From NCBI GenBank assembly GCA_046351155.1, contig JAXLYZ010000005.1, positions 43,254 through 107,253 on the forward strand: DNA of 64,000 nt, in the 5' to 3' direction. The notes under the pieces were generated by a model. That model had not been told where the DNA came from. It worked only from the letters and a program-made list of their open reading frames with translations, and did not search any database. The stretch is from Myxococcota bacterium (GTDB lineage: Bacteria > Myxococcota_A > UBA9042 > PHBI01). The position numbers and the translations under genes are program-made. Below, piece by piece: positions 8,395 to 33,342 of this stretch; the stretch's first letter is position 1, and each line of letters starts with the position of its first letter.

Positions 8395-8418
8395 TTGGCG
8401 GCGCTCGGCGTCGCGGGT

Positions 8419-12500: not shown

Positions 12501-13618
12501 TGGTGCGCCACCGCGAGCGCTTCGAGGCCGTGAGCTGGGCGACGCTCGTCCTCGACGAGGCGCACGCCATGAAGAACGCCACCACGCGCCGCGCAGGTGG
12601 CGCGCGCCATCCCGGCCGGCTTCGTGCTAGCGCTCACCGGCACGCCGGTCGAGAACCGGCCGAGCGAGCTCTGGAGCTTGTTCCAGGCGGTCGCGCCCCC
12701 GGACTCCTCGGCTCGGCCGAGAGCTTCCGCGACACCTTCGCCGCGCCCATCCAGAACGGCGACTCCGAGGCGCCGCGCCGCCTCGCGCGCCTGGTCCGGC
12801 CGTTCATCCTGCGCCGGAAGAAGGTCGAGGTGGCGGCCGATCTGCCGGCCAAGAGCGAGGTGCGCGTCGATGTCGTGCTCGGCGGCGACGAGCGCGCCCG
12901 CTACGAGAAGGTGCGGAAGGCGGTGCTGGCCGAGCTCGCCAAGGACGACGCCCACCCGCTCGACGGCGGCCGCGGCGTCATCAAGGTCCTGAGCGTGCTC
13001 ACGCGGCTGCGCCAGCTGGCCTGCCATCCGCGCCTCGTCGACCCGCACGCGCCGGCGACCTCGGCCAAGCTCGAGCGCCTGATGGAGCTCGTGCAGGAGC
13101 TCCGCGACGAGGGTCGCCGGACGCTGGTCTTCAGCCAGTTCACCGAGCTCCTCGGCCTGGTCCGGACCGCCTTCGACGAGGCCGGCGTGAGCTACGCCTA
13201 CCTCGACGGATCGACGCCGGCCGAGCGCCGCGAGGTGGAGATCGACACCTTCCAGAGCGGCGCGGTCGACGCCTTCCTGCTGTCGCTGAAGGCGGGCGGC
13301 GTCGGCCTGAACCTCACCGCCGCCAGCGAGGTCATCCACCTCGACCCGTGGTGGAACCCGGCCGCCGAGGACCAGGCCACCGATCGCGCCCACCGCATCG
13401 GCCAGGACAAGCCGGTGACGCTCTACCGGCTGGTGGCGCAGGGCACCATCGAGGAGCAGATCCTCGGCCTGCACGGCGACAAGCGCCGCATGGTGGCGAG
13501 CCTCCTCGAGGGCACCGGCTCGGCCGCCGCGCTCACCGTCGACGAGCTCATGGCGCTCCTCACCGAAGCGCCCGACGACGACGCGCTCAGAGCCCCGACG
13601 GCCCGATCCGCGCCTTGA
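9518..13618 (+). pseudogene. SNF2-family helicase (DEXDc + HELICc, long N-terminal region) disrupted by at least 8 frameshifts
   Basis: Protein-like segments hop between all three plus frames. The hops run: 9518-10320 in frame 2; 10341-10500 in frame 3; 10500-11430 in frame 1; 11438-11720 in frame 2; 11727-11860 in frame 3; 11870-12495 in frame 1, carrying motifs LRPYQKEGLSWL and DDMGLGKTLQ; 12503-12600 in frame 2, carrying the DEAH box LVLDEAHAMKN; 12597-12705 in frame 3, carrying LALTGTPVENRPSELWSLFQ; and 12705-13618 in frame 2, carrying the helicase C motifs FSQFTELL and QATDRAHRIGQ. Confidence 0.7.
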
Positions 13619-19700: not shown

Positions 19701-20185
19701 TCAGGCCTCGGCGCGAACGACAAGCGGCTTTCGCATCTTGAAGCCGGTCGTGCGGTAGCCGAGGCGCTCGTTGAGCGCGAAGGCGCGCGGGTTGTGCGCG
19801 TAGACGTGGAGGTCGACGCGCGTCGCGCCGAGCCCGACGAGGAGCGCCTCCATGGCCACGAGCGCCGCGCGGCCGTAGCCGCGACCGCGCTGCGAGGCGG
19901 CGATGGTGACCTCCTCGAGGAAGGCGCCGGCGCCGCTCACCGAGAACCACAGCTGCCGACCGGCTCGTCGCCGGCCATGACGACGTGGAAGTGCTGGCCC
20001 GGCGTGGCCAGGCCGCGGCCGAGCTCGGCGGCGACGCGCGAGGTGGCCTCGGCCAGCGCGGCCTCGGGGGTGAGGTCGTCGAGGCGGGCGAGATCGGCCG
20101 CCCAGTCGGCGGCGAAGATCTGCCGGAAGGCGGCGAGCTCGGGCTCGGTCATGGGGCGGAGCGTCACGGCGGAAGCGGTCGGCAT
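19701..20185 (-). CDS. GNAT-family N-acetyltransferase, interrupted by a 1-nt frameshift at about 19954
   Basis: Two abutting ORFs (19937-20185 and 19701-19940) together give a GNAT. The first reads ...HFHVVMAGDEPVG. The second reads SGAGAFLEEVTIAASQRGRGYGRAAL with the acetyl-CoA motif Q/RxxGxG/A. Adding a single C or G within cacagctgcc (about 19954) yields the continuous sequence ...DEPVGSLWFSVSGAGAFLEEV... Confidence 0.65.
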
Positions 20186-20204: not shown

Positions 20205-20831
20205 ATGGCGCGGATGTCACGCGCCGCGGCTGCGACGGCGCGCGCGCTCGGCTATGCTCGGGCGGTGACCTCGCGCGCCCTCGAGCATGCCTTCTTCGCC
20301 ACCGCCATCGGCCGCTGCGCCATCGTGTGGAGCGCCGACGGCGTGGCCGGCGTGCACCTGCCCGCGCTCGACGACGACGCTGCCGGGGCCGCCGGCGCGG
20401 CGGCGCTGGCCGCGCGCTTCTCCGGCTCGCGCGAGGCGATCGCGCCGGCGCGGATCGCGCGCGCCATCGAGGCCATCACGGCGCTCCTCGCCGGCGAGCC
20501 GCGCGACCTCGGCTTCATCGCCCTCGACCTGGCCGACGTGCCCGAGGCGGCGCGGCGCGTCTACGCCGTGGCGCGCACCATCGGCCCGGGCGAGACGCTG
20601 ACGTACGGCGAGGTCGCGGCGCGCCTCGGCACGCCCGGCGCGGCGCGCGCCGTGGGCCAGGCGCTCGGGCGGAATCCGTTCCCGATCGTGGTGCCGTGCC
20701 ATCGCGTGCTGGCCGCCGGCGGCCAGGACGGCGGCTTCTCGGCGCCGGGCGGCGTCGCGACCAAGCGCCGGCTGCTGGCCCTCGAGGGCGCGCGGCTGGC
20801 GCCGGTGCAGCTCGATCTGCTCGGCCGCTGA
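20205..20831 (+). CDS. ogt: Methylated-DNA-[protein]-cysteine S-methyltransferase
   Basis: Active-site PCHRV and DNA-binding-domain motifs (TYGEVAARLG, RAVGQALGRNPFPIVVPCHRVL). The start is uncertain: ATG 20205 or 20214, or GTG 20265. Confidence 0.8.
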   Translation: MARMSRAAAATARALGYARAVTSRALEHAFFATAIGRCAIVWSADGVAGVHLPALDDDAAGAAGAAALAARFSGSREAIAPARIARAIEAITALLAGEPRDLGFIALDLADVPEAARRVYAVARTIGPGETLTYGEVAARLGTPGAARAVGQALGRNPFPIVVPCHRVLAAGGQDGGFSAPGGVATKRRLLALEGARLAPVQLDLLGR

Positions 20832-21692
20832 CGGCCAGATCCGGCCGCCGACGCGCGTGGCCGCGTACAGCGCGATGCCGCTGCACACCGCGACGTTGAG
20901 CGAGTCGAAGCCCGCGGCCATGTCGATGCGCACGCCGCGGCAGCGCGCGGCGAGCGCGTCGGGCAGGCCCGGGCCCTCGCTGCCGAGGATGAGCGCGCGG
21001 CGCGGCGCGGGTCCGAGGTCCTCGAGGCGCTCGGCGCCGCGCAGCGTGAGCGCGACCGGCTCGTAGCCGTGGCCGAGCAGCGCGTCGACCAGCGCGTCGC
21101 CGCTCTTGGCGCGAGCGAACGGCACGAGCAGCGCGCCGCCGACGGAGACGCGCACCGCCTTCCTATATAAGGGGTCGCAGGTCGCGTCATCGAGCAGCAC
21201 GCCGCGCACGCCGAAGGCGGCCGCGTTCCGGAAGACGCCGCCGACGTTGTCGTGGTTGGTGAGCCCGACCAGCGCGACGACCAGGCCGTCGCCGTCCAGC
21301 AGCTCGTCGGGGGACGGCCCGAGCGCGCGCCCGCCGAGCGCCAGCACGCCGCGGTGGATGGCGAAGCCGACGATGCCGTCCATCACCGCCTGCGTGACGA
21401 CGTAGGCGGGCACGTTGTCGGGCAACGCCGCGAGCACGTCGGCCATGGCGCGCACGCGCTTCTCCTCGAGCAGGAGCGAGCGCACCGGGAAGCGCCGCTG
21501 GCCGACGAGCACGCGCACGACCACCTCGCCCTCGGCGATGAAGGCGCCGGCGCGCGCGCCGTCCAGGGCCGCGCCCGGCTCGGCCAGCGCCAGCAGATCG
21601 CGGTCGCGCACGCAGCGATACGGCGCGAGCGCGGGGTCGTCGGGGTCGGTCAGCGGGACGATCGAGGCAGCCACGGTCGACCGGTGTGCCAC
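20217..21692 (-). CDS. TrmH/SpoU-family RNA 2-prime-O-methyltransferase (3-prime end uncertain)
   Basis: SpoU motifs GLTNHDNVGGVFRNAAAFG, LILGSEGPGL and SLNVAVCSGIALY sit within the first 280 codons. The ORF then continues as Arg-rich low-complexity sequence for about 200 more codons, fully antisense to ogt. The true stop is probably near 20830-20850 and appears lost. Confidence 0.65.
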   Translation of the reverse strand: MAHRSTVAASIVPLTDPDDPALAPYRCVRDRDLLALAEPGAALDGARAGAFIAEGEVVVRVLVGQRRFPVRSLLLEEKRVRAMADVLAALPDNVPAYVVTQAVMDGIVGFAIHRGVLALGGRALGPSPDELLDGDGLVVALVGLTNHDNVGGVFRNAAAFGVRGVLLDDATCDPLYRKAVRVSVGGALLVPFARAKSGDALVDALLGHGYEPVALTLRGAERLEDLGPAPRRALILGSEGPGLPDALAARCRGVRIDMAAGFDSLNVAVCSGIALYAATRVGGRIWPSAAEQIELHRRQPRALEGQQPALGRDAARRREAAVLAAGGQHAMARHHDRERIPPERLAHGARRAGRAEARRDLAVRQRLARADGARHGVDAPRRLGHVGQVEGDEAEVARLAGEERRDGLDGARDPRRRDRLARAGEARGQRRRAGGPGSVVVERGQVHAGHAVGAPHDGAAADGGGEEGMLEGARGHRPSIAERARRRSRGA

Positions 21693-21711: not shown

Positions 21712-24700
21712 TCACAGCCTGACGGTCCACGCGCCGACCACCTCGCCGCTGGTCAGGCTCACGGCGCGGACGCGGCCGTCGCGGCTGAAGGCGGTGAGGA
21801 TCGGGCCGAGGCGGCAGTCGACGCGCTCGGCGCCCTCGAAGCGCAGGCTGGCCAGCGTCAGCGCCGGCTGCACGGTGCGCACGCGGCGCACCAGGATCGA
21901 CGGCGGGCTCGCGACGACCTCGGCCACGAGCTTGCCGTCGAGCGGGGTCGTCACCGTGAGCGGCGTCATGGGGTGGTCGGCGCTCCGGCCCTGGCGCTCG
22001 AAGCGGAAGCTCGGCAGCTCGAAGCGCCAGTGGAGGTCGGGCGCGACGGCGACGCTGAGGTGGTCGGGGTGGCGCTCGAGGCCGGTGATCGGGCCGCCGA
22101 GGTCGCTCACGTACCAGGTCGCCTCGGGCGGCGTGGAGTGGACGTCGAGCGCCGTCACGCTGGTCGCGTCGGCCAGGATGAGCTGCCGGCCATCGAAGGT
22201 GCGCGCCACGGCGCGCGCCGGCAGCGTCTGCCACGGGATGGCGACGCGCCGCTCGAGGTCGAGGCGGGCGATGCGCGCCAGCGCGCCGCGAAGGCCACCG
22301 CCGCCGCGGCCTGGCCGTGGTCGGCGACGACGAGCTGGTGGGCGGGCTCGGTCATGTGCGCCAGGCGGCGGCCGCGGCGATCGAGCAGCAGCACGCCCAG
22401 CTCGCCCAGCGCGACGAGCAGGCGCTGGCCCGGCAGCGCGGCGGCGTCGAGCACGGACAGCGGCCCGCGCTCGCTCGACGGCACGTCGATGACCAGCGGC
22501 GCGCGCGCCGAGCGAGCGCTGCGCCCGCGGCAGCGGCGGCAGGTCGGCGGCGAAGCTCTGGTCGAAGCGCGCGCGCTGGATCACGTCGCGCACGAGCTCG
22601 GGCCGGAGGTCGCCGCGCAGCACGTCGCCCAGCAGGACGCGCGCGGCCGCGTCGGCCAGGCGCTCGAGGCGCGGGTGCGGCGCGACCTGGCGCAGGCGCT
22701 CGGCCAGGATGCCGCGGGCGGTCGCGTCGGGGTCGTCGCGCAGCGCGGCCAGCGCGGCCAGCGCCTCGGGCTCGCGCGCCGGCGCCACCTCGAGCAGCTT
22801 CGGCAGGACGGCCGCCGCGCTCGGGCCGCCGAGCGCCAGCGCGCGCTCGATCCACGGCAGCGCCAGCGGGCGCTGCGCGGCGGGCAGGGGCCAGTAGATG
22901 TCGAGCGCGCGCACGACGTCGCCGGTCGCGGCGATGGACTCGGCCCAGGCGCTGCGCAGCGCGGCGGCGCGCGGGTCCTTCTCGCGCTCGAGGCGGCTCA
23001 GCGCGGCCGCGAAGGCGCCCTTCTGCACGGCGAAGGCGACGGCGCGATCGCGCTCGCCGGCGCGCATGAGGGCGATGACGACGAGGCTCGGCTCGAGCTG
23101 CTCGCCGCCGCCATGGTCGCCGCCAGCTCGAAGCGCTCGTGCTTCACGAGCAGCTCGTAGGCCTCGAGCGGCCGCTCGAGCAGCTCGGCGTGGACGAACG
23201 CAGCCTCGTCGACGCGACCCTCGGCCATCAGGCGATTGAGCATGACGCCGTAGCGATCGCGCAGGTGCTGGAACAGCTCGGGGACGACGCCGAGGCTGGC
23301 CTGGCCGCCGGCGCCGGGCACGCTGTAGGTCAGCGCCGTGCGCGGGCTCGGCGCGCGCGCGCGTCAGCGGCCCGGCGGCGCCCGGCGTGGTGTGGAGCGG
23401 GATGGCGTGGCGCAGCGCGGCGTCGAGGTCGCCGCGATCGAGCATGCCGAGCAGATCGCCGAGGTAGCGCGAGGCGGCGCGGCCGAAGAGCGAGCCGATA
23501 CCGGCGCGCACGGCGAGGCGCTCGAGCCAGCGCGAGATGCGCCCGAAGAGACCGACGCGCGCGGTCGGCGCGGGCGCGGCGAGGGTTCGACCGGACGCGA
23601 CGCCGGCCGGGTCGCGCGACGGCCTCCGAAGAGGCGGCGCAGCGCCTGCGCGAAGCGGCCGGGGCGGCGCGGCGGCGTCTTCAGCGCGCGGGCGACCTCG
23701 TCGCGCGCGGCGGCCAGCTCGAACGAGGGGCCGAGGTATTGTTGCGGCGTCAGCGGCCGCGCGACGGCGAGCGCGGGCAGGCGCGGCTCCGGCCCGAGCG
23801 GCGCGACCGATGCGACGGGGACGGCGGCGAGATCGATCCACGCCACCGGATCGAGCGCGCGCGCCTCGGCCAGCGGCGTCGCGGCAATGGCGCCGCCCAT
23901 GACCGCAACCAGCGCCGCCGGGCGCGGCTCCGGGCCGAGCACCTGCGCCAGCTCGGCGGCCTCGAGCGGCGCGGCCAGGAGGTCGGCGCCGCGGCGCACC
24001 AGCACGAGCCCGGGCGCGCCGGCGCACGACATGCGCCGCGGCGCGTCGAAGACCAGCAGCACGCCCCACGGCGTCCGGGCCACGCGGTCGCCCATGCCCC
24101 ACAGGCCGAGCGCGCGCCTCGGCGTCGACCTGGAGGACCAGACCGGCGGCGACGACCGAGCCGCGATGCAGCACCTGGCGCGGCGTGGCTCGGCTCACGC
24201 GCCGTCCTTCGCGCCTGTCGCGAGCGTGACCAGGTTCGCGCCGCTGACGATGTCGACGACGGCGATCTCGCCGCTCTCGGCGCGCCAGGCGAGGTGGCCG
24301 AAGGCGCGGCTGACGCACGCCGAGGCGACCGGGCGCGGCGCGCGCGCGATCTCCTTCACGCCGTCGGGCAGGAGGTGCGAGGCCTGCCGCCGCTCCGCGT
24401 CGAGCACGACCAGCCCGAGCACGGGCGACGACGGCGCGGCGCGGGCCAGGCCGATGACCTCGCAGCCTTCGGCCAGCGACACGCCCCGCGGCGCGCGCGC
24501 CGCGTCGAAGAGGGTCCACGCCCGCGCGCCGGTCTCGACCGCGACCGCGCCGGACGCGTGGCCGGCCGCGTCCGGCCCGAAGAACACGCGCGCGCCGGGC
24601 GCGAAGTCGAAGACCGCCAGCTCCATCGGCGCGGCCGGCGCCGCGTCCGGGTCCCCAGTCCTTGGGCAGGAGCAGCAGGCGGCCGCGGCCCGCGCCGAGC

Positions 24701-25956
24701 GCGGCCGAGGTGCCGACGCAGACGATGCCGTCGCGCCGGACGGCGAAGGCGTGGATGGTGTCGGAGTGGTTGCGCGTGCCGAGGGTCGGCGCGTGCGACC
24801 AGGCCACCAGGCGCCCGAGGCCGTCGAGCGTCATCCAGCGCAGGTGGAGGTAGCCGGCCTGGCCCACGCCCTCGACGCGAAAGGGCAGGCCATCGATGGC
24901 CGCCACGGCCTCGCGCGGCGGGTGGAGGTGGGGCGCGCCGCGGGACGACGCGAGGACGTGCGCCCCGCGCAGGGCGAAGGCCGCGAGCACGCGACCGATG
25001 GAGCCGACGGCGAAGAGCTCGCCCTCGGGCAGGTGCACGATCAGCGGCTTGCCCGCCTTGATGGCCGCCGAGTGCGGCACGTGGAAGGCGGTGAGCTTGT
25101 CGGCGCTGCGCACGAGCAGCCGGTGGCCGTCGCCGGAGAACATCGGCGCGCCGATCGCGGCATCGCGCGCGCGCTTGGCGTTGGGCTGCGGGGTCGTGCC
25201 CGGGTCGCCGAGGAGCGCCGCGCCGGACCAGTCCGACGGCAGGCTCAGCGCCACGCCGCGGCTCGCTGCCCCCTTGCGCGTGACCTCGACGCGCAGCTCG
25301 CGCTCGCCGCTCGCGACGCTGATGGCGTGCGCGCCGATGGCCGCGGCGCGGGTCGGCGTGTCGACGTCGCCGACCAGCCACAGCTCGCCGGCCCCGTGCT
25401 CCAGGGCGCGCGCCCGGGCGCGCGCGACGTCGGCGAGGACGAGCTGACGCAGGCTGCGCGCGGCGAGCAGCGCGCGGGCGTCGAGCCGCTCGTCGAGCGC
25501 GTCGCGCTCCGACTGGAGGACGCCCCAGGCGAAGCGCGCGCCGGCCTCGCGCGCGCGGCGACCGAGCGCGACCAGCAGCGCGACGTGGGCGAGGCGCATG
25601 ACGCCGAGCTGGCTCGGGCCGACGTCGAAGAGCACGGCCGTGGCGCGCCCACCGCTCGGCGCGCGGCGCTGCAGCTCGAGGAAGGTGTGCTCGCTGGCGG
25701 CGGCGCGGCGCAGGAACTCGTCGGGCAGCTCGTCGGCCAGGAGCCACTCGCTGGACAGCAGGCGCTGGTACGGCCCGCGCCGCGCCAGGCCGCCGAAGCC
25801 GTCCGGCTCACCGCTGCCCGGCGGTGGCGAGCCGCCGAGCGGACCGAGCGCGTGCAGCAGCCGGTCGAGCCACGGCGTGATGGCGCGGGCCAGCGCCTCG
25901 GGCACGAGCGCCAGGCTGTCGGCCCAGCGCGAGACCGGCTGACCGAGGCGCGTCAT
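21712..25956 (-). pseudogene. Large gene(s) downstream of the RavA-like ATPase, disrupted by multiple frameshifts (degenerate VWA-like N-terminus, beta-propeller-like and helical-repeat segments)
   Basis: Starts at ATG 25956, overlapping the upstream stop (ATGA). Protein-like sequence runs 25956 to about 24650 in one frame. It continues 24626-24195 in a second frame ending in a stop, then 24095 to about 23620 in a third frame. The rest is islands of protein-like sequence in the long-ORF frame (about 23130-22480 and 22270-21712), separated by Arg-rich out-of-frame stretches. Confidence 0.5.
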
Positions 25957-26363
25957 CGGGCCTGCCGCCAGGCTTCGAGCGCGGCCGCGCTCAGGCGACG
26001 CGCGTGCCCGAGCGGCACCAGCAGCGACGGCTCGGTCAGCAGCGCCACCGGGGTCGAGCCGGCGCGCGCGACCGCGGCGCGCGCGAGCAGCGTCGTCGCG
26101 AACGGCGGCGCCAGCGTCGTCGGCAGGTAGAGCTCGGGGCACAGCGGCTCGCGCCCGAGGTATTCGACGCCGTCGACCCAGGGCAGCGCGTCGCTCGGCC
26201 CCAGCAGCACGATCAGGTCGGCGCCGGCCACGCCCTCGAGGCGCGCGCGCCGCTCGTCGGCGAGCTCCAGCGCGGCCTGGACCAGCGCGCGCGCCACCGC
26301 GCCCCGACCGACGGCGGCCTCGGGTGCGAGCGGCTCGACGCGCGGCACGAGCGCCGGCGTCAT
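25953..26363 (-). CDS. Small hypothetical protein (137 aa), translationally coupled on both sides
   Basis: The ATG overlaps the RavA-like stop (ATGA at 26360-26363), and its own stop overlaps the next ATG (25953-25956). The sequence is protein-like. Confidence 0.45.
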   Translation of the reverse strand: MTPALVPRVEPLAPEAAVGRGAVARALVQAALELADERRARLEGVAGADLIVLLGPSDALPWVDGVEYLGREPLCPELYLPTTLAPPFATTLLARAAVARAGSTPVALLTEPSLLVPLGHARRLSAAALEAWRQAR

Positions 26364-27649
26364 GCGGAATCGCCAAGCACCTTGACGATGCGCGCGCGCA
26401 GCGTCGCGATGGGCGCGGGCCGGGCGTCGGCCGCGAAGCTGGCGTCGATCTCGCGCGCGATGCCCTCCACGCGCAGGCGCCAGGCGCGCAGCGCGTCGCG
26501 GCCGTCGGCGCCGGCCGCGCTCGGGACCTCGGCGAGCAGCGCTTCGCCGAGGCGCGCGATGCGCTCGGCGCGCGCGTGCGGGCCCTGCGAGGCGTCGAGC
26601 GCGGCGGCGGGCAGGGCCGGGTTGTGCGCGTGGGCGAAGACCTCGCGCAGCGCGTCGCGCGCCAGCGCCTGGCCCTCGGCGCTCGGCACCACATAGAGGA
26701 GCGGCCACAGGTCGGCCGGCGTCGGATCGGCTCGGCCGGCCAGCACGGCGGCGGCGGCCGTGAGCGCCTGGGCCTTCACGATGCGCCGATCGGTGAGCGC
26801 GATGCCGGCGTCGCGCAGCGTGCGCACGACCTCGGCCAGACGCGGCCGGAGCGCGCTGGTGTCGGCGACGCGCGCGGCCTCGACCAGCACGTCGATGTCG
26901 GCGACGCTGGCCGGCGGCGGCCCGAGCGCGTCGCGCTGCAGGCTGGCGCCGGCCGCGAGCAGGTCCTCGAGGGCCGGGTCGGGGATGGGCTGCACGAAGA
27001 CGTGGAGCAGGAAGCGATCGGCGAAGGCGGCCAGCGTCGGATCCTCGGGCAGCGCGTTCGACGCGCCGACGCACACGCGCAGCGGGCAGGCGATGTCGCT
27101 GTGGCCGCGGCGGAAGCGGCGCTCGTTGAGGACGCCGAGGAGCGAGTTGAGGATGGCCGTCGAGCCGAGGAACACCTCGTCGAGGAAGGCCAGGTCGGCT
27201 TCGGGCAGCATGCCGTGGGTGTCGGTCTCGACGCGCCCGGCGCGGAGCTTCTGCAGATCGACCGCGCCGAAGATCTCGCTCGGCTCGGTGAAGCGGCCGA
27301 CCAGGTACTCGAAGACGCGGCCGTCGATGCCGCGCGCCACGCGCCGCACCGCCTCGCTCTTGGCGGTCCCGGGCGGGCCGATGACGAGCAGGTGCTCGCG
27401 CGCGACGGCGGCCAGGACCACGAGCTCCACCACCAGCTCGCGCTCGACCAGGCCGCGCGAGGCGCGCTCGATGGCGAGCCGCAGCCGTCGCGACGCATCG
27501 GCCAGGCCCGCGCGCGCGAGACGATTCTCGGGGTCATGGCGGGCGGTCGTGGACATTGGCGCAAGATAGCTGCTATCCGCACAGAGCGCATCCCACGTGT
27601 CGAGGTAGCGAGCCGTCGCGCCACCACCCGGTTTGCTCATGCGCGACAC
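26360..27649 (-). CDS. MoxR-family AAA+ ATPase, RavA-like
   Basis: Walker A LVIGPPGTAKSE. There are blocks closely resembling E. coli RavA: FEYLVGRFTEPSEIFGA against RavA FEYLMTRFSTPEEVFGP, and LPEADLAFLDEVFLGSTAILNSLLGVLNERRF against RavA [32 protein letters not shown]. The start is GTG 27649 or ATG 27640. Confidence 0.8.
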   Translation of the reverse strand: MSRMSKPGGGATARYLDTWDALCADSSYLAPMSTTARHDPENRLARAGLADASRRLRLAIERASRGLVERELVVELVVLAAVAREHLLVIGPPGTAKSEAVRRVARGIDGRVFEYLVGRFTEPSEIFGAVDLQKLRAGRVETDTHGMLPEADLAFLDEVFLGSTAILNSLLGVLNERRFRRGHSDIACPLRVCVGASNALPEDPTLAAFADRFLLHVFVQPIPDPALEDLLAAGASLQRDALGPPPASVADIDVLVEAARVADTSALRPRLAEVVRTLRDAGIALTDRRIVKAQALTAAAAVLAGRADPTPADLWPLLYVVPSAEGQALARDALREVFAHAHNPALPAAALDASQGPHARAERIARLGEALLAEVPSAAGADGRDALRAWRLRVEGIAREIDASFAADARPAPIATLRARIVKVLGDSA

Positions 27650-27699
27650 AACGGGGCAGCTCGATCCTCGATGGATCGGCCTGCCCTCGAGGGGGCCAT
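27650..27699. promoter_or_regulatory. 50-bp divergent intergenic region between the RavA-like operon (minus) and the K/E-rich-protein/kinase/AAA operon (plus)
   Basis: Only about 50 bp separate the two divergent start codons. GAGGGGG lies 5 nt before ATG 27700. Confidence 0.4.
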
Positions 27700-29856
27700 A
27701 TGGTGCTGAAGTCTGCGAAGAAGCTGATCGACAACGTCAGCGGCAAGAAAGACAAGTCGAAGGGCGCTCCGACCACACCGCCGCCGCGGCCGACCACGCC
27801 GGCGCCGACGACGAACAAGCAGGCACCGCCGCGGCCGACCACGCCCGCGCCGACCGACAAGCAGGCGCCGCCGCGACCGACCACGCCGGCGCCCGGTACG
27901 CCGACCGTCGCCCAGGCGCCGAAGGCCTTCGTGAAGGGCGCCAAGCCCGGCACGCCGCAGCCCGAGGGCTCGCAGCTGGGCGCCCAGCGCGCCTGGAAGA
28001 AGACGACGCCGAAGGCGAACGACAAGGCGCCGACCAGCCCCAAGAAGATCGGCGAGAACCGCAAGATCACGAAGGCCCTCGAGAAGCAGGAGTCGAAGAC
28101 GCCGCTGCCGACCGAGGTCAAGGAGAAGGTCGAGGAGGCCAAGGAGGTCGAGAAGGTCGCGCCCGTGGTCGAGAAGGCCAAGCACGAGACCCCGCCGGCC
28201 AACAAGTACAGCGCCTCGGCCTACACGACGACGGTCGCCGACGACGAGGCGAAGAGCCCGTACACGACCACCGTCGACGACGGCGAGAGCCCGCTGCGCC
28301 AGAGCCAGGGCAAGGTCGGCGCCTACAGCTCCGAGCAGAAAGACGCCGAGGACGACATGTCCTCCCAGGACGACGTCTCGTCCGACGCGCTCGAGGTCCA
28401 GGGGCTCGACCCCAACCGCTACGCGGCCGTGCAGCACAGCGACGTGGCCACGTTCTCGTCGTCCGACGACGGCTTCGTGAGCGAAGAGGAGACGAGCTCG
28501 AGCGGCGAGGTCGGCGCCCCGATGCAGATCCCCAAGGCCCAGCTGCTGATGCGCATCAAGGCGGCCAAGGTCGCCAAGCTGCGCGCCGACCGGGCCAAGG
28601 AGAAGGAGGCCGAGAAGGCCAAGCAGGAGGACGAGGCCAAGCAGAAGAGCAACGAGACGCCGAAGGAGGAGGTCAAGGAGGAGGTGAAGGAGGATGCGCC
28701 GCCCACCAACTACGGCTCGGCCACCAACTACGCCTCGGCCAGCAGCTACACCATGACCGGCTCGGACTCCATGGCCCACTACGGCAACCGGTACAGCAGC
28801 ATATCGAGCGACGACGAGCCCGACCTGTCGTCGACCGGCTTCCGCACCGACGACATGAGCGCGCACACCGCCGAGATCGACATGGCCTCCGACCTCGAGG
28901 ACGCCGCGGCGGCCATCCCCAACGTCCAGGAGCGCCACACCGCCTCGAAGAACCCCGAGGTGAAGGCCATGCAGCAGAAGCTGCGCGACGGCCGGCGCAA
29001 CCTGAAGGACGCCCCCGAGGTCGTGAACGACTCGGTGACCGGGCAGCACATCGCCACCAACCAGATCGAGCGCGAGCGCATGAGCTCGAACGAGCGCAAG
29101 TCCGAGGGCTGGGCGCTGCTCGGCATGCGCACCGAGCACCGCGAGCAGGACCTCGGCAAGAAGGGCGGCCGCTGGGACGTCAAGTACGCGCTCTCCGAGT
29201 TCGCCGAGATCGAGGCCGGCGTCGAGCAGCTGCTGGGCGACAAGCTCCGCACCGGGCGCGAGGAGATGCTGTGCGAGGTCTACGGCGGTCGCCTCGTCGA
29301 CGTGGCGGGCCGCGGCGTCGACACCTCGAGCGCCGGCGTCAGCGGACAGGCGCAGCACGATCGCACCGACAAGCTGCGCGAGAAGATCGAGAAGGCCAAG
29401 CAGGCCGGCTTCGGCGACAAGGTCGCCAAGCTCGAGAAGAAGCTCGACACCGCCGTCAAGGACCCGCGCAAGGACAAGAGCATCTCGGGCCGCTTCATCT
29501 ACGTGATGAACGCCAGCGGGCAGTTCTTCGCCTGCAAGCCCGAGCTCTACAAGGTCCACCACTCGGCCATGCTGGCGGGCGGCGCGGTCGCGTGCGCCGG
29601 CGAGATGCTGGTGTCGGGCGGCACCATCCAGGCCATCAACAACTCGAGCGGCCACTACCGGCCGGGGCCGGCCTTCCTGTGGCAGGCCGTGAAGCAGCTC
29701 GAGATGAGCGGCGCGTCGATGGGCTTCCAGGTCGAGTGCGCGGCCGTGACGCGCAAGTTCAAGACCGGCACCGACTTCCTGAGCGCCATGGATCCGACGA
29801 CCGACGCCAAGCTCTTCGACGGCGTCTACGCCGTGAAGAAGCTGAACGCCCGATGA
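27700..29856 (+). CDS. K/E/P/T-rich intrinsically disordered protein with an unrecognised C-terminal globular domain (about 130 aa)
   Basis: 718 aa with no signal peptide. It has three 11-aa PT repeats (APPRPTTPAPT), charged K/E blocks (KAAKVAKLRADRAKEKEAEKAKQEDEAKQK) and a Y/S/N-rich segment. The C-terminal segment is GRFIYVMNASGQFFACKPELYKVHHSAMLAGGAVACAGEMLVSGGTIQAINNSSGHYRPGPAFLW. Codon usage is native-like (AAG/GAG). The stop overlaps the next ATG (ATGA). Confidence 0.65.
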   Translation: MVLKSAKKLIDNVSGKKDKSKGAPTTPPPRPTTPAPTTNKQAPPRPTTPAPTDKQAPPRPTTPAPGTPTVAQAPKAFVKGAKPGTPQPEGSQLGAQRAWKKTTPKANDKAPTSPKKIGENRKITKALEKQESKTPLPTEVKEKVEEAKEVEKVAPVVEKAKHETPPANKYSASAYTTTVADDEAKSPYTTTVDDGESPLRQSQGKVGAYSSEQKDAEDDMSSQDDVSSDALEVQGLDPNRYAAVQHSDVATFSSSDDGFVSEEETSSSGEVGAPMQIPKAQLLMRIKAAKVAKLRADRAKEKEAEKAKQEDEAKQKSNETPKEEVKEEVKEDAPPTNYGSATNYASASSYTMTGSDSMAHYGNRYSSISSDDEPDLSSTGFRTDDMSAHTAEIDMASDLEDAAAAIPNVQERHTASKNPEVKAMQQKLRDGRRNLKDAPEVVNDSVTGQHIATNQIERERMSSNERKSEGWALLGMRTEHREQDLGKKGGRWDVKYALSEFAEIEAGVEQLLGDKLRTGREEMLCEVYGGRLVDVAGRGVDTSSAGVSGQAQHDRTDKLREKIEKAKQAGFGDKVAKLEKKLDTAVKDPRKDKSISGRFIYVMNASGQFFACKPELYKVHHSAMLAGGAVACAGEMLVSGGTIQAINNSSGHYRPGPAFLWQAVKQLEMSGASMGFQVECAAVTRKFKTGTDFLSAMDPTTDAKLFDGVYAVKKLNAR
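27775..27900. repeat. Coding 33-bp tandem repeat, 3 copies (encoding PPRPTTPAPT[TD]KQA)
   Basis: ccgccgcggccgaccacgccggcgccgac... is repeated three times with minor variation. Confidence 0.55.
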
Positions 29857-30371
29857 GCGACCTCGCAGCCGCGGTCGGCCGCGCCGCCGATCTCGTGGGA
29901 CGCATCGTCGACGACCCCACCGAGCACGGCCTGGCCGCGGCGGTGGCGGCCGATCCGGGGTCGCTCGACGCGCTCTTCGCGGTGCTGCGCGACCGCTTCG
30001 TCGAGCGCGGCGAGGGCTTCGGCGACCTCGAGGGCGACGACACCTTCTGGCGCATCATCGCCATCGCGCTGACGACGTGGGCGCCGGCGCTGCGCGAGCG
30101 CTTCGCCGCCGAGGTGCTGTTCAAGGCCGCGGCGCCCGACGCGTATCGCTGGATCGCGCCGCTGGCGCGCGCGCTCTATCGCGCCGACGCGGCCGAGCGG
30201 CTGGTGCTGGCGGCCGTCGAGCGCGGCGACGCGGCGACGCGCGTGAACGCGTCGCACCTGGCGTACTACCTCTTCGACGGCTCGCCCGAGTACGCCCTGT
30301 CGGACATCGGGGCGCGTCGCCTCGCCGATGCGGACCCGCTCCGCTCGCCGCGGGCGGCGGACGGTGACTGA
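29853..30371 (+). CDS. Hypothetical helical protein (172 aa), translationally coupled
   Basis: The ATG overlaps the upstream stop. The protein is protein-like with no known motif. Its stop TGA overlaps the GTG 30364 start candidate of the kinase. Confidence 0.55.
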   Translation: MSDLAAAVGRAADLVGRIVDDPTEHGLAAAVAADPGSLDALFAVLRDRFVERGEGFGDLEGDDTFWRIIAIALTTWAPALRERFAAEVLFKAAAPDAYRWIAPLARALYRADAAERLVLAAVERGDAATRVNASHLAYYLFDGSPEYALSDIGARRLADADPLRSPRAADGD

Positions 30372-33342
30372 CCTGCCCTACGAGCTGGGCCCGCTCATCG
30401 GGCACGGCGGACAGGCGGATGTGCACGCGGCGACCGAGCCCATGACGGGCGCGCCGCTGGCCGTGAAGGTGCAGCACCTCTCGGCCAATCGCCACGCCGG
30501 GCCGAGCCTGCTGCGCGAGTACCAGCTGCTGCGCGAGATCGATCATCCGGCCTTCGCCGTGGCGCACGCCGCCGGTCGGCTGGCCGACGGTCGCGTGTGG
30601 CTCGCCATGCAGCGGCTCGACGGCGTGGCCGCGGCCGACTGGGCGCGCGGCCTCGGCCCGCCCGCCACGCGCCACCGCACGCGGCGCGTGCTCGAGCGCA
30701 TGGTGGCCATCGCCGACGCGGTGGCCTACCTGCACCGGCAGGGCGTGGTCCACGGCGACCTCAAGCCCGGCAACATCCTCGTCGCGGCCGACGGCTCGCC
30801 GCGCATCCTCGATCTCGGCGGCGTCCACTTCGACCCGGGCCTGGCCCCGGGCGCGCGCGGCATGTTCCGCACGGTGCCGTACGCCTCGCCCGAGCAGCTC
30901 GACAAGGGCGTCCTGGCGGCGAGCGCCGACGTGTTCTCGCTGGCCGCGACGTGCGTGCGGCTCCTGAGCGACGAGCATCCCTTCGGGGCCGGTGCCAAGG
31001 ACGCGGTGCGCGCGCGCCAGGGCGCGGCGAGCGCGGCGAGCGCGGCGCTCGATCGCTCGGGGCCGCTGTCCGAGGCTACGCGCGCGCTGCTCCTGCGCTG
31101 CTTGAGCGTCGAGCCCGCCGCGCGGCCGTGCGACGCCGGTGCGCTGCGCGACGCGCTGCGCGCGCGCCTGCCGACGCCGGTGGCCTGGCCGACGGCCGAG
31201 CCGCGCGCGGCCAGCCAGGCCGAGGCGCTGGGTACGCTGCGGGCGCTGCTGGTCGACGCGCCCGGCCTCGCGCCGGTGGCGCTCATCGGGCGCCCCGGTG
31301 GCGCCGCGGCGCTGCTCGCGCAGCTCGCGCTGGATGCGGCCGCGCTCGGTGCGAGCGTGCTCGAGGTCGGCGGCGACGCGCCCGAGCGCCTGCGCGACGC
31401 GCTCGACGCGCTGCTCGAGGGCGCGACGCCGACCAGCGAGGCGCCGCAGCTGGTGGTGCTCATGCGCCGCGCGGAGCGCTTCCCGGCGAGCGACCGCCGC
31501 GCGCTCGAGGTGCGCCTGGCCACGCTGGTCGAGCGCGGCTGGCGCGTGGCCCTGGTCGCGGCCACCCACGAGGCCGGGATGGCCCACGTCGCGCGCTGGC
31601 TGCATCGGCCGACGGCGATCCGACTCGCGCCCGAGGCCTCGGTCGAGGTCGACGAGCCCGAGGCGGAGGCGGAGACGAACGAGCCGGCGTGGCCGGGCGA
31701 CGCGCAGCTGGCGGCGATCCTCGAGGCCACCGCGCTGGTCGCGGCCAGCCCCGACGGCCGCGCCGACCTGGCCACGCTGGCGTCCGGGCTCGCGCTGACG
31801 CCGGCCGCGGTGCGGCGCGGGCTCGATCGACTGGCGCGCCACGGCTGGGTGCGCGGCGACGCCGACGGCGGCTGGGCGTTGGCCGAGCCCGAGCTGCGGC
31901 GCACGTTGCACCGACACGGCGAGGGCCGCGCGGCGCTGGCCGAGCGCCTCGCCAACGAGTGGGAGGTCGAGCCGCACGCGCTCGGCCGCGCCAACTGCCT
32001 GCTCGTCGCCGGGCGCGTGGTGGCCGCGGCCGACAACGCCGCGCGCTGGGCACGGGCCGCGCTGCGCCACGACGACGTCGCGCGCGTGGCCGACGGCCTC
32101 GACCGGCTCGGCGCGCTCGACGACGCGCTCGAGCCCGGCGCGGCGCGCACCTCGTGGCTGCTGTTGCGGGCGCGCACGGCCGCGCTCGCCGACTGCACCG
32201 ACCCGCGCGTCGCCGGATGGCTCGCCGAGCTCGGCGCCCGCGCCGAGACGCGCGAGGCCCAGCGCGCCGACGAGCTGGCCGCGGTCGTCGCCGGCTGGCG
32301 CGGCGAGCCGCCCGAGCGCGCGCTGGTGCTGGCCCAGCGCGAGCTCGACCAGGGCCGCTACGAGCGCGCGCTGGCGCTGGCGCGCGGCGAGGTGAGCCAG
32401 GCCCACGAGGCCGGCGCGCTCGACGTCGCGGCGCGCGCGGCGCTCGTCGCCGGACAGGCGCTGGCGGCGCTCGGCCGCCTCGAGGAGGCGGCGCGCGCGC
32501 TGGCCGACGCGGCCGACGGCTGGCCTGATGCGCCCGGCGCGGGCGCCGTCGCGTACGAGCGCGCCGAGGTGCTGGCGGCGCTCGGGCGCTGGGGCGAGGC
32601 CGGGCGCGTCCTGGCGCGCGCGCACGCCCGAGCGACGACGCCGTGGGATCGCGCCGCGACCGCCATCGGCGCGGCCGCGCGGGCCACCGATCGCGGCCAT
32701 GCGCGCGGCGCGCTGGCGCTGCTCGAGGCGCTCGCCGCCGAGCCGTTCGTCGCGCGCCACCCGCGCCTCCAGCTCGGCTGGCACGTCGAGCGCCTGCGCG
32801 CCATCGCGCTGCACGGCAGCGACGACGCGCTCGCCGCGGCGCGCGCCGCCGAGCCGGTCGTGGCCGAGCTCATGCGCGCCGGTCGCCGCGCACACGCGGC
32901 GCGCCTCGGCGCCTGGCAGGCGGCCGCGGCCTGGACGGCCGGCGACCATCAGACGCCGAGCACCGAGGCGAGCGGCCTCGCGACGTGGGCCGCCAGCATC
33001 CTGGGCGAGCTCGGCCATCGCCTGTGGTGGGCCGAGGCCGCCACCGTCGACGTGTGGCTCGCGCGTAGCCAGGGCGGCGACGCGCGCATGCCGCCGGCGC
33101 TCGTCGCGCAGCTGACGGAGGCCGAGGCGTGGCCGCTGGCGATGCGCGCGGCGCTGGCCGAGGGCGACGTGCAGCGGGCGTGGGGCGCGGCCGAGATGTT
33201 CCTGGCGCACGTCGACAGCGCCGGCGCGATCGCGCTCGAGCTGATGCCGTGGGCGGTGCGGGCGCGCGCGCTCACGGCCGAGGCGGCACACCACGCGAGC
33301 CTGGCGAGCACGTCGAGCACGTCGAGCACGGAGGACGGCTGA
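30328..33342 (+). CDS. Ser/Thr protein kinase fused to STAND-like NTPase (degenerate P-loop), winged helix and TPR-like repeats
   Basis: Hanks kinase motifs GHGGQADVH, AVK, HGDLKPGNIL, DLGG and VPYASPEQ. They are followed by ALIGRPGGAAALLAQ (a P-loop lacking Lys), LVVLM (Walker B-like) and a long Ala/Leu-rich helical repeat region. Start is ATG 30328 or, more likely, GTG 30364. Confidence 0.85.
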   Translation: MRTRSARRGRRTVTDLPYELGPLIGHGGQADVHAATEPMTGAPLAVKVQHLSANRHAGPSLLREYQLLREIDHPAFAVAHAAGRLADGRVWLAMQRLDGVAAADWARGLGPPATRHRTRRVLERMVAIADAVAYLHRQGVVHGDLKPGNILVAADGSPRILDLGGVHFDPGLAPGARGMFRTVPYASPEQLDKGVLAASADVFSLAATCVRLLSDEHPFGAGAKDAVRARQGAASAASAALDRSGPLSEATRALLLRCLSVEPAARPCDAGALRDALRARLPTPVAWPTAEPRAASQAEALGTLRALLVDAPGLAPVALIGRPGGAAALLAQLALDAAALGASVLEVGGDAPERLRDALDALLEGATPTSEAPQLVVLMRRAERFPASDRRALEVRLATLVERGWRVALVAATHEAGMAHVARWLHRPTAIRLAPEASVEVDEPEAEAETNEPAWPGDAQLAAILEATALVAASPDGRADLATLASGLALTPAAVRRGLDRLARHGWVRGDADGGWALAEPELRRTLHRHGEGRAALAERLANEWEVEPHALGRANCLLVAGRVVAAADNAARWARAALRHDDVARVADGLDRLGALDDALEPGAARTSWLLLRARTAALADCTDPRVAGWLAELGARAETREAQRADELAAVVAGWRGEPPERALVLAQRELDQGRYERALALARGEVSQAHEAGALDVAARAALVAGQALAALGRLEEAARALADAADGWPDAPGAGAVAYERAEVLAALGRWGEAGRVLARAHARATTPWDRAATAIGAAARATDRGHARGALALLEALAAEPFVARHPRLQLGWHVERLRAIALHGSDDALAAARAAEPVVAELMRAGRRAHAARLGAWQAAAAWTAGDHQTPSTEASGLATWAASILGELGHRLWWAEAATVDVWLARSQGGDARMPPALVAQLTEAEAWPLAMRAALAEGDVQRAWGAAEMFLAHVDSAGAIALELMPWAVRARALTAEAAHHASLASTSSTSSTEDG

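What the first reader, a model, noticed from the sequence alone, without database searches (positions are those of the whole stretch)
21712..27649. RavA-like MoxR AAA+ ATPase operon whose large partner gene is heavily frameshifted
The ATPase (26360-27649) shows block-level similarity to E. coli RavA. It is followed, with ATGA overlaps, by a 137-aa protein and then a very large gene. That gene's protein-like sequence is scattered over three frames: 25956 to about 24650, 24626-24195, 24095 to about 23620, about 23130-22480 and about 22270-21712. It has a possible degenerate-MIDAS VWA start (VLFDVGPSQ) and beta-propeller-like and helical-repeat parts. RavA normally pairs with a VWA protein (ViaA). 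Here the partner appears to be decaying while the ATPase is intact.
Basis: partly seen in the sequence, partly recalled or inferred. Interest (0 to 1): 0.6.

Follow-up and report, generated by a model that had tools for sequence, protein, structure and literature searches.

The report
Frameshifted MoxR-vWA-propeller conflict operon, probably misassembled
This is an ordinary four-gene MoxR-vWA-beta-propeller 'ternary' conflict operon from a Myxococcota metagenome bin, and the seven reading-frame breaks in its two large genes are more likely uncorrected assembly errors than real gene decay.

Summary
The frame scatter is real in the deposited sequence. Its interpretation needs correcting.

- **System identity.** The ATPase is a bpMoxR-family MoxR (Pfam PF20030, 5e-83; P-loop GPPGTAKS), not RavA. 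It is followed through ATGA overlaps by bpX5 (PF19921).
- **Two genes, not one.** Next come a ~590-aa vWA + beta-propeller protein (X, 25956-24195) and a ~830-aa bpX6 protein (Y, 24198-21712). They are joined by a GTGA overlap. This is the beta-propeller-containing MoxR-vWA ternary system of Kaur et al. 2020.
- **Frameshifts.** Profiles of intact homologues map colinearly onto alternating frames. There is 1 shift in X and 6 in Y, with no in-frame stops.
- **Comparison with other genomes.** In 49 related operons X and Y are single-frame. The only exceptions are two Nanopore-only MAGs, which show the same kind of patch.
- **Other broken genes.** The window holds a second patch (8 or more shifts) in an unrelated SNF2 helicase, plus isolated shifts elsewhere.
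- **The 1660-codon ORF.** It is a by-product of about 97% GC3.

Most likely (~0.6) the breaks are consensus indel errors. Real recent pseudogenisation (~0.33) cannot be excluded without reads. Interest is low.

The parts
26360..27649 (-). bpMoxR-family MoxR AAA+ ATPase, intact. ORF from GTG 27649; homology and coding signal begin near ATG 27556. Walker A GPPGTAKS (residue 91), Walker B FLDE (155), sensor-1 GASN (195).
   Evidence: Pfam PF20030 bpMoxR 5.4e-83 and AAA_5 3e-20. RavA equivalog only 146 of 681 bits. Motifs. 55-65% identical to 50 homologues. Normal conservation at conserved columns.
25953..26363 (-). bpX5 accessory protein, 136 aa, intact. ATGA overlap with the ATPase stop. Annotated in GenBank as U1F43_02295.
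   Evidence: Pfam PF19921 bpX5 8e-34. ATGA verified. Exact protein MFO0744487.1.
24655..25956 (-). Gene X, 5' part in its original frame: N-terminal helices, a vWA-like alpha/beta domain (MIDAS position reads D-V-G-P-S-Q), and the first beta-propeller blades. ATGA overlap with the bpX5 stop.
   Evidence: Profile of intact X homologues, positions 14-363, maps to 25935-24949 (2.5e-66). 77 homologues of about 600 aa. AF2 models. Best PDB fold hits are the NorD vWA of NorQD, integrin beta-I and the CLCA1 VWA. The D111/G113/P114/Q116 motif is conserved across the family.
24640..24700 (-). Frameshift site in X. The net frame change is equivalent to a 1-nt insertion or a 2-nt deletion.
   Evidence: GC3 phase change at about 24654 with no stop. 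The spliced protein folds as a continuous propeller across the junction, with pLDDT 85-94.
24195..24654 (-). Gene X, 3' part (last propeller blades) in the shifted frame. It ends at TGA 24197-24195.
   Evidence: Profile positions 551-633 map to 24473-24222 in the shifted frame (7e-9). PDB fold hits are WD40-type propellers.
21712..24198 (-). Gene Y, the bpX6-domain third component (about 830 aa when reconstructed). GTG start in a GTGA overlap with the stop of X. The coding path alternates between two frames:
- 24198-24112 (A)
- 24110-23628 (B)
- 23625-23365 (A)
- 23360-23106 (B)
- 23103-22501 (A)
- 22496-22284 (B)
- 22281-21712 (A)
   Evidence: PF19922 bpX6 3.5e-16 on the spliced protein. A 925-position profile of 8 intact homologues maps colinearly onto the alternating frames. 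GenBank protein U1F43_02275 (451 aa) reads through the out-of-frame stretch 22496-22284 as Arg-rich junk.
24110..24117 (.). Y frameshift 1, inside a (GC)4 run.
   Evidence: Profile positions 4-38 and 30-176 overlap here in the two frames. Run listed; sequence.
23600..23650 (.). Y frameshift 2, in the low-complexity linker. Located by GC3 phase only.
23351..23363 (.). Y frameshift 3, inside a 13-nt alternating G/C run, (GC)6G on the + strand.
   Evidence: Profile junction 316/317 at 23357. Run. Frame-B stop at 23366-23364 lies just upstream.
23095..23112 (.). Y frameshift 4, at a GCGGCGGCG repeat.
   Evidence: Profile junction 401/402 at 23103. Sequence.
22499..22508 (.). Y frameshift 5, inside a (GC)5 run.
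   Evidence: Profile positions 602-608 overlap at 22520-22495. Run.
22271..22295 (.). Y frameshift 6, at GGCGCGCTGGCGCGCA, just before the conserved LARLDL motif.
   Evidence: Profile junction 677/679 at 22293/22290. Sequence. The Nanopore MAG locus L036 has a private 1-nt deletion at the homologous spot.

Best explanation
**What it is.** The locus is a four-gene, translationally coupled operon of the beta-propeller-containing MoxR-vWA ternary system: bpMoxR ATPase, bpX5, a vWA + beta-propeller protein (X) and a bpX6 + helical + beta-rich protein (Y).

**How it probably works (inferred from the family description, not shown here).** The MoxR hexamer uses ATP to remodel the vWA-propeller adaptor. 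That adaptor docks the bpX6 'third component', whose variable N-terminus is the presumed sensor or effector of a biological-conflict system.

**State of the deposited sequence.** In the deposited MAG sequence X carries one small frame-shifting indel and Y carries six, so neither full-length protein is encoded.

**Most likely cause of the breaks.** They are uncorrected consensus indel errors in a locally poor patch of the metagenome assembly. On this reading the organism has an intact operon.
For: **Identity**
- Pfam bpMoxR, bpX5 and bpX6 all hit, and the P-loop is GPPGTAKS.
- The gene order is the same in intact loci L001 and L002 and in 49 related loci.
- X has a vWA-like fold plus a propeller.
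- The family description is in PMC7159879, section 22.

**Artefact**
1. Among the 49 related operons, X or Y is split over frames only in L036 and L048.
   - Both come from the Nanopore-only, Medaka-polished Microflora Danica catalogue (PMC12313526).
   - That is 2 of 5 MFD loci against 0 of 44 others, Fisher p about 0.009.
   - L036's breaks are private 1-nt indels relative to two short-read relatives that are 88% identical and intact.
   - In L048 the patch covers the ATPase and X instead, so patch position is not tied to gene function.
2. This window has a second patch of similar density, about 1 shift per 350-400 nt, in an unrelated SNF2 helicase with at least 8 shifts. These are verified against six homologues. 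There are also single breaks in a GNAT gene and in two other genes.
3. No other lesion type is present.
   - There are 0 in-frame stops over the 1408-codon spliced path and no large deletions.
   - GC3 is 0.92-1.0 in every segment's own frame.
   - The spliced X folds confidently across the junction.
4. The patch (24655-22282) crosses the X/Y boundary and leaves the first 1.3 kb of X and the last 0.57 kb of Y clean.
Against: - The sequencing technology of this MAG is unknown. I could not retrieve the record, the reads or any near-identical sequence.
- About 50 kb of the window is free of unexplained frame changes, even though it holds 33 G5/C5 runs and over 100 (GC)>=4 runs. Any error process must therefore be very patchy.
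- The indel spectrum here is about 13 events of '+1/-2' type against 4-5 of '-1/+2' type. L036 is deletion-biased instead (7 deletions, 2 insertions).
- Y matches only 76% of family-conserved columns. That is the lowest of 20 phylogenetically isolated controls (median 90%), whereas the ATPase, bpX5 and X are normal.
- The six shifts in Y alternate strictly. That has about a 1 in 20 to 1 in 64 chance under random indels.
Confidence: 0.6

Rival explanations
1. Real, recent pseudogenisation. The bpX6 gene (6 indels) and the vWA-propeller gene (1 indel) have been inactivated by slippage-type indels, several of them in (GC)n runs. The bpMoxR ATPase and bpX5 are still maintained.
For: - The frame breaks are strongly clustered. 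The neighbouring ATPase, bpX5, ogt and SpoU-methylase genes, and about 50 kb of the window, are clean despite similar GC content and (GC)n content.
- All broken genes are accessory or conflict-type genes: the bp system, an SNF2 helicase and a GNAT.
- Three of the six sites in Y sit in (GC)4-6 runs, a classic -2 slippage context.
- Y has excess substitutions at family-conserved columns: 0.756 against a median of 0.898.
Against: - There are no nonsense codons and no large deletions, and the codon-position GC signature is undisturbed. The stop test is weak, however: P(0 stops) is 0.14-0.32 at a 10:1 substitution-to-indel ratio for this locus alone.
- The substitutions in Y are mostly multi-nucleotide changes, and they are equally frequent in the in-frame and out-of-frame segments. 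That looks like long-term divergence rather than recent decay.
- Overall Y identity is normal for the ATPase distance.
- Identical-looking patches occur only in Nanopore-only MAGs of this operon.
- A second unrelated gene 9 kb away is broken at the same density.
Confidence: 0.33
2. The breaks are real and constrained. Only indels that keep the frame starting at 25956 free of stops were tolerated. The selective reason could be that premature termination would be polar on the SpoU-type methylase gene, which starts 20 nt after Y. Alternatively, a 1415-residue X-Y chimera might retain a function.
For: - All seven shifts, together with the GTGA junction, keep one frame open from 25956 to 21712.
- Every shift goes in the direction that avoids the stop-rich frame.
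- The naive probability of this is about 1/128. Given three events of each type in Y, it is about 1/20.
Against: - The out-of-frame stretches include the most conserved parts of Y: the bpX6 domain, the central helical block and the first propeller blades. They would be translated as Arg/Ala/Pro junk, as in GenBank protein P0001.
- The SNF2 gene's shifts do not preserve its ORF.
- Conserved-column mismatches do not differ between the in-frame and out-of-frame segments.
- This reading also requires that the indels are real.
Confidence: 0.04
3. A RavA-ViaA system (the E. coli-type MoxR ATPase with its ViaA vWA partner) whose ViaA-like gene is degenerate.
For: The NCBIfam RavA model hits the AAA+ core at 2.4e-42. 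RavA and this ATPase both belong to the MoxR clade.
Against: - The score is 146 bits against an equivalog cut-off of 681, and only profile positions 11-278 of 498 are matched.
- The best family is bpMoxR, at 277 bits.
- The partner has no ViaA or VWA Pfam hit and carries a propeller.
- bpX5 and bpX6 genes are present, and RavA-ViaA systems lack them.
Confidence: 0.01

Closest known systems
Beta-propeller-containing MoxR-vWA ternary system (Kaur, Burroughs, Iyer & Aravind 2020, eLife 9:e52696, 'vWA-MoxR subsystem 4'; Pfam bpMoxR PF20030, bpX5 PF19921, bpX6 PF19922)
   Same: - A MoxR ATPase with the GxxxTAKS P-loop.
- A divergent vWA lacking the canonical MIDAS serines, fused to a C-terminal beta-propeller.
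- A large third component with an N-terminal bpX6 domain followed by helical and beta-rich regions.
- A small accessory bpX5 gene.
- The same gene order as in 49 other genomes.
   Different: - As deposited, the vWA-propeller gene has 1 frame break and the third component has 6.
- No member of the family has been studied experimentally, so the function (conflict or defence) is a prediction.
- The family is not represented in PADLOC v2.
NorQ-NorD (MoxR AAA+ with a vWA partner that matures nitric oxide reductase; PDB 9qhe, 9qhd)
   Same: It is a MoxR-class ATPase paired with a vWA protein. NorD is the best solved-structure match of the X N-terminal domain (E 1.7e-3, probability 1.0).
   Different: The match is weak (TM about 0.35). 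NorD has no propeller, bpX5 or bpX6 partners and sits in a different genomic context. The NorD-type MIDAS residues are not conserved here.
RavA-ViaA of E. coli
   Same: The same MoxR clade of AAA+ ATPases, and the same logic of an ATPase working with a vWA cofactor.
   Different: It fails the RavA equivalog threshold. Only profile positions 11-278 of 498 align, so RavA's C-terminal part is unmatched. The partner is not ViaA-like, and two extra conserved genes are present.
Frameshift patches in long-read (Nanopore-only) metagenome-assembled genomes
   Same: These are clusters of small indels over 2-4 kb that break otherwise well-conserved genes, with no stops or large deletions. They are seen in the orthologous operon of MFD02979.bin.2.191 (L036) and MFD04580.bin.2.50 (L048).
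   Different: The technology of the present MAG is unknown. Its indel spectrum is not deletion-biased and favours (GC)n runs rather than short homopolymers.

Membership tests
MoxR-vWA-beta-propeller ternary system | MoxR-clade AAA+ ATPase of the bpMoxR family | tested here: met
   PF20030, 5.4e-83, 277 bits, profile positions 2-188 of 205.
MoxR-vWA-beta-propeller ternary system | P-loop variant GxxxTAKS (PMC7159879, section 22) | tested here: met
   GPPGTAKS at residue 91; Walker B FLDE at residue 155.
MoxR-vWA-beta-propeller ternary system | [quoted passage not shown] | tested here: met
   - Tested on the spliced reconstruction only.
- AF2 model: pLDDT 83, pTM 0.70.
- The C-terminal ~330 residues match WD40-type propellers (E 1e-7 to 1e-8).
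- The N-terminal alpha/beta domain matches the NorD, integrin and CLCA1 vWA domains best, but weakly (E 1.7e-3).
- There is no sequence-level vWA hit.
MoxR-vWA-beta-propeller ternary system | Third component: variable N-terminus (bpX6), then helical repeats, then a beta-propeller | tested here: inconclusive
   - The bpX6 domain is met (PF19922, 3.5e-16).
- The protein is colinear with 890-999-aa homologues over profile positions 4-921.
- The C-terminal propeller has only a marginal hit (designed propeller Tako8, E 0.023).
- There is no detectable profile similarity to X (hhalign probability 1.4%).
MoxR-vWA-beta-propeller ternary system | Conserved operon bpMoxR-bpX5-X-Y | tested here: met
   Same order and close coupling in L001, L002 and 49 loci from Acidobacteriota, Myxococcota, Armatimonadota and others.
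MoxR-vWA-beta-propeller ternary system | All components encoded as intact ORFs (a functional system) | tested here: not met
   Seven frame shifts in X and Y in the deposited sequence. Whether they exist in the organism is not testable here.
MoxR-vWA-beta-propeller ternary system | Role in biological conflict or defence | not testable with these tools
   This is a prediction of Kaur et al. only. There is no PADLOC model. Some homologues of Y carry N-terminal PP2C phosphatase domains (P0007, P0009-P0013), which fits a variable effector position.
RavA-ViaA | RavA equivalog score and full-length match | tested here: not met
   NF010054: 145.6 bits against a cut-off of 681. Only profile positions 11-278 of 498 are matched.
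RavA-ViaA | ViaA-type vWA partner | tested here: not met
   X has no Pfam or NCBIfam hit. It carries a propeller and has homologues only among ~600-aa 'hypothetical proteins' of bp systems.
Genuine pseudogene | Frame-disrupting mutations relative to intact orthologues | tested here: met
Genuine pseudogene | Mutations supported by reads or present in an independent sequence of the same lineage | not testable with these tools
   No reads are available. No relative is closer than 65% (ATPase) or 38% (Y). The contig is not retrievable.
Genuine pseudogene | Accompanying signs of relaxed selection (nonsense codons, deletions, loss of conserved residues) | tested here: inconclusive
   - There are no stops over 1408 codons, which is a weak test.
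- There are no large deletions.
- Y is the lowest of 20 controls at conserved columns (0.756 against a median of 0.898), but its overall identity is normal and the pattern looks like old divergence.

The most novel reading that the evidence does not exclude
The indels are real and the same thing has happened independently in at least two lineages: this Myxococcota MAG and the Holophagales MAG L036. In both, the 3' half of the vWA-propeller gene and the bpX6 gene are riddled with small indels while bpMoxR and bpX5 stay intact.

That would point to one of two things. Either the presumed sensor/effector half of this conflict system is recurrently and rapidly inactivated, for example because it is costly or autoimmune. 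Or local indel hypermutation occurs at GC-rich simple sequence in these genes. In this window only stop-free frame changes would have been tolerated.
Probability: 0.07. Interest if true: 0.55.

Novelty: new member of a known kind. Interest (0 to 1): 0.17.

Why it matters
**If the frameshifts are artefacts.** This is the more likely case. The value is practical.
- The GenBank annotation of this MAG turns out-of-frame DNA into 'hypothetical proteins' such as U1F43_02275 and the 615-aa SNF2 fragment. Such products pollute protein databases.
- In genomes with about 97% GC3, frameshifts of one direction do not create stops, so ORF-based checks miss them.

**If they are real.** The locus would be an example of a predicted conflict system losing its sensor/effector genes while keeping its ATPase. 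No member of this system has been characterised. Either way the operon itself adds only one more member to a family already described in 2020.

Tried and rejected
- **RavA/ViaA membership.** Rejected: 146 of 681 bits, and no ViaA-type partner.
- **'One giant gene'.** Rejected: GTGA junction at 24198/24195, and two genes in all 49 related loci.
- **The 1660-codon ORF as evidence of a real long gene.** Rejected as a GC3 by-product.
- **Retrieving the source contig or its reads.** The look-up of encoding contigs failed for three GenBank proteins of the MAG. The MAG is not among the GTDB representatives. A JGI metagenome scan with Y peptides found nothing. A literature search for the locus-tag prefix found nothing.
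- **Homopolymer truncation as a long-read signature.**
  - The window has no G/C run of 6 or more, where 4-7 are expected.
  - However, 33 of 35 G5/C5 runs lie in unbroken frames.
  - I therefore give this no weight.
- **Nonsense-codon test for neutral decay.** Too weak for this locus alone.
- **GC3-phase scan of the related loci.** Unreliable at 68% GC or below.
- **Sequence-level detection of the vWA domain.** No PDB profile hit. Only fold-level support was obtained.
- **Homotypic similarity between the X and Y propellers, as suggested by Kaur et al.** Not detected by hhalign.
- **Apparent in-frame stops in X of 13 loci.** These were an artefact of using envelope coordinates.


Full report
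**Source and composition.** The window is about 75% GC. Two of its ORF products are exact GenBank proteins of a 'MAG: Myxococcota bacterium'. They carry locus tags U1F43_02275 and U1F43_02295 and lie on a 377-kb contig. At this GC content stop-free ORFs are everywhere, so I located coding frames in two independent ways.
- I used the third-codon-position GC signal, which is 0.92-1.0 in the true frame.
- I used homology to intact relatives.

**The observation.**
- On the minus strand an intact 429-codon AAA+ ORF (27649-26360) is followed through an ATGA overlap by a 136-aa ORF (26363-25953).
- A second ATGA overlap leads to an ORF starting at 25956.
- From there the coding signal switches between two frames without stop codons, at about 24655, 24110, 23626, 23357, 23103, 22500 and 22290.
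- One frame stays open from 26775 to 21712.
- That openness is expected. In intact genes of this window, a frame starting at codon position 3 has 0.11 stops per 100 codons, against 1.59 for position 2. The 1660-codon ORF is therefore a by-product.

**What the genes are.**
- Pfam assigns the ATPase to bpMoxR (PF20030, 5e-83).
- It assigns the small protein to bpX5 (PF19921, 8e-34).
- It assigns the N-terminus of my spliced downstream protein to bpX6 (PF19922, 3.5e-16).
- The NCBIfam RavA equivalog scores only 146 bits against a cut-off of 681.
- The P-loop is GPPGTAKS. This is the GxxxTAKS variant that Kaur et al. 2020 describe for the beta-propeller-containing MoxR-vWA ternary systems (PMC7159879, section 22).

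**Two genes, not one.** Intact relatives show four genes: bpMoxR, bpX5, a ~600-aa protein (X) and a ~900-aa bpX6 protein (Y).
- The first examples were a Logan contig (L001) and GCA_040961615.1 (L002).
- The pattern then held across 49 loci from Acidobacteriota, Myxococcota, Armatimonadota and others.
- In the window, X ends at TGA 24197-24195 in the shifted frame, and Y starts at GTG 24198. This forms a GTGA overlap.
- The 'very large gene' is therefore two genes.

**The frameshifts are in the sequence.**
- A 925-position profile of eight intact Y homologues maps colinearly onto alternating frames:

| Profile positions | Window coordinates | Frame |
|---|---|---|
| 4-38 | 24189-24097 | A |
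| 30-176 | 24131-23676 | B |
| 181 to ~316 | — | A |
| 317-401 | 23357-23103 | B |
| ~402-608 | to 22495 | A |
| 602-677 | 22520-22293 | B |
| 679-921 | 22290-21733 | A |

- For X, profile positions 14-363 lie in the starting frame and positions 551-633 in the shifted frame.
- That gives 1 shift in X and 6 in Y.
- There are no in-frame stops on the 1408-codon spliced path.
- None of the sites lies at a homopolymer of 5 or more. Three sites in Y lie inside alternating G/C runs of 8-13 nt. Another lies at a GCG repeat, and another at GGCGCGCTGGCGCGCA.

**Architecture of X.**
- The spliced X (587 aa, with 65 homologues) gives an AF2 model with pLDDT 83 and pTM 0.70. It has a continuous beta-propeller across the frameshift junction.
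- The propeller matches WD40-type propellers in the PDB.
- The N-terminal domain modelled alone (pLDDT 80.5) matches vWA domains best, though weakly. The hits are NorD of the NorQD complex (E 1.7e-3, probability 1.0), the integrin beta-I domain and the CLCA1 VWA.
- Sequence profiles detect no vWA.
This agrees with the remark by Kaur et al. that these vWA domains often lack MIDAS residues. It is not a decay feature.

**Architecture of Y.**
- The C-terminal propeller of Y could not be tested properly. The only hit was marginal (Tako8, E 0.023).
- There is no profile similarity to X.
- Some Y homologues carry N-terminal PP2C phosphatase domains, which fits a variable effector position.

**Real decay or assembly error: evidence for error.**
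1. *Only Nanopore-only MAGs show the same breaks.*
   - With the most sensitive settings, X and Y are single-frame in 47 of 49 related operons.
   - The exceptions are L036 and L048. L036 has at least 1 shift in X and at least 6 frame changes in Y. L048 has a split ATPase and at least 3 shifts in X, while its Y is intact.
   - Both come from the Microflora Danica catalogue. It was assembled from Nanopore reads only with metaFlye and one round of Medaka, and its authors note Nanopore-associated errors at lower coverage (PMC12313526).
   - That is 2 of 5 MFD loci against 0 of 44 others.
   - L036's breaks are private 1-nt indels (7 deletions, 2 insertions) relative to two short-read relatives that are 88% identical and intact. 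They are confined to a 4.3-kb patch.
2. *Unrelated genes in this window are broken too.*
   - A second patch of the same density lies in an unrelated SNF2-family helicase (about 9790-13615, + strand).
   - It has at least 8 shifts, mapped colinearly to six homologues.
   - These include a 2-nt loss in the Tyr codon of the VIVTSY motif and a shift at a C5 run.
   - Single breaks also occur in a GNAT gene (19940), in an unknown gene (16244) and possibly at the end of a TauD gene (62550).
3. *No other lesion type accompanies the indels.* Conserved motifs and the codon-position GC signal are undisturbed.
4. *The patch ignores gene boundaries.*

**Real decay or assembly error: evidence for real decay.**
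- I could not learn the MAG's sequencing technology or find any near-identical sequence.
- About 50 kb of the window is clean despite many G5/C5 and (GC)n runs.
- The indel spectrum is about 13 events of '+1/-2' type against 4-5 of '-1/+2' type, which differs from L036.
- Y matches only 76% of family-conserved columns. This is the lowest of 20 phylogenetically isolated controls (median 90%), while the ATPase, bpX5 and X are normal.
- That excess has limited weight, for three reasons.
  - It is equal in the in-frame and out-of-frame segments.
  - It consists largely of multi-nucleotide replacements.
  - It leaves overall identity normal for the ATPase distance.
  - It therefore looks like old divergence rather than recent decay.
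- The strict alternation of the six shifts in Y, which keeps one frame open from X's start to Y's stop, has only about a 1 in 20 to 1 in 64 chance. I note it but cannot build on it.

**Verdict.**
- The locus is a new, unremarkable member of a known and experimentally uncharacterised kind of system.
The RavA/ViaA label and the single-gene model are wrong.
- 'Decaying partner' is unproven.
- I put about 0.6 on assembly indel errors, about 0.33 on real recent pseudogenisation, and a few per cent on more exotic readings.
- The question can be settled with the MAG's metadata and read pile-ups at the listed coordinates.

Noticed in passing
window 9790-13615 (+): An SNF2-family helicase is broken by at least 8 frame shifts (probably 10-11).
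- Its homologues are 974-1435 aa. The C-terminal part matches PADLOC DpdE/ZorD-type helicase models.
- The frame order is 2>0>1>2>0>1>2>0>2.
- One shift is a 2-nt loss in the Tyr codon of VIVTSY at about 12491. Another lies at a C5 run at 12696.
- GenBank protein P0093 (615 aa) reads through out-of-frame stretches.
   Followed up: yes
window 19701-20185 (-): A GNAT acetyltransferase domain is split into two ORFs (82 aa and 79 aa) that abut at 19937-19940. The C-terminal ORF matches Acetyltransf_1 positions 60-116 only. This is probably another single frameshift.
   Followed up: partly
window 16229-16244 (+): The coding phase changes without a stop inside an unknown gene (15564-16552; no Pfam hit). 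The junction reads ...LRAPDGAG | AHAIDLPGAPL...
   Followed up: partly
window 62520-62560 (-): A TauD-family dioxygenase (62552-63154) reaches the end of its Pfam profile, but its frame has no stop until 61685. The next gene (lipoprotein-like signal peptide, ATG 62520) starts in another frame. A G5 run lies at 62534. This may be a 3'-end frameshift.
   Followed up: partly
window 20217-21692 (-): The ORF of the SpoU-type RNA methylase starts 20 nt after Y's stop. Its domain ends near 20860, yet the ORF has no stop until 20217. It therefore runs about 200 codons antisense through the convergent ogt (MGMT) gene (20229-20831, +).
   Followed up: no
window 21712-23064 (-) and 10648-12495 (+): The GenBank (PGAP) annotation of this MAG calls ORFs that read through out-of-frame DNA. 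Examples are U1F43_02275 (451 aa, with an ~80-residue Arg/Ala/Pro-rich stretch) and P0093. The X N-terminal part is not in the protein collection at all.
   Followed up: partly
L036:12604-16858 and L048:10450-13850: Two Nanopore-only Microflora Danica MAGs (MFD02979.bin.2.191 and MFD04580.bin.2.50) carry multi-frameshift patches in the orthologous operon. L036's indels are private relative to short-read relatives L021 and L018 (88% identical). One lies at the position homologous to the window's Y shift 6.
   Followed up: yes
whole window: There is no G or C homopolymer of 6 or more in 64 kb (counts for lengths 4, 5 and 6+ are 229, 35 and 0). Other high-GC loci have a 6+/5 ratio of about 0.26. 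Most G5/C5 runs lie in unbroken frames, so this is probably natural avoidance.
   Followed up: partly
window 27556-29856 (+): Divergently upstream of the ATPase lies a 717-766-aa ORF with a Pro/Thr/Lys/Glu-rich low-complexity N-terminal half. It has lower GC (67-70%), strong AT skew (0.49 at 28-29 kb) and no Pfam hit. It is followed by a Ser/Thr protein kinase (30364-33339) and an AAA ATPase with a winged-helix domain (33306-35513).
   Followed up: no
P0007, P0009-P0013 (homologues of Y): Some bpX6 proteins (1171-1226 aa) carry N-terminal PP2C-type phosphatase domains (PF13672, PF00481, PF07228). This suggests that the variable N-terminal position of the third component can hold a signalling enzyme.
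   Followed up: no
window 7367-8395 (-): One coding phase is maintained over about 1 kb, but there are three in-frame stops (first bases at 8153, 7784 and 7367). These could be several short same-frame genes or nonsense codons. I did not examine this.
   Followed up: no
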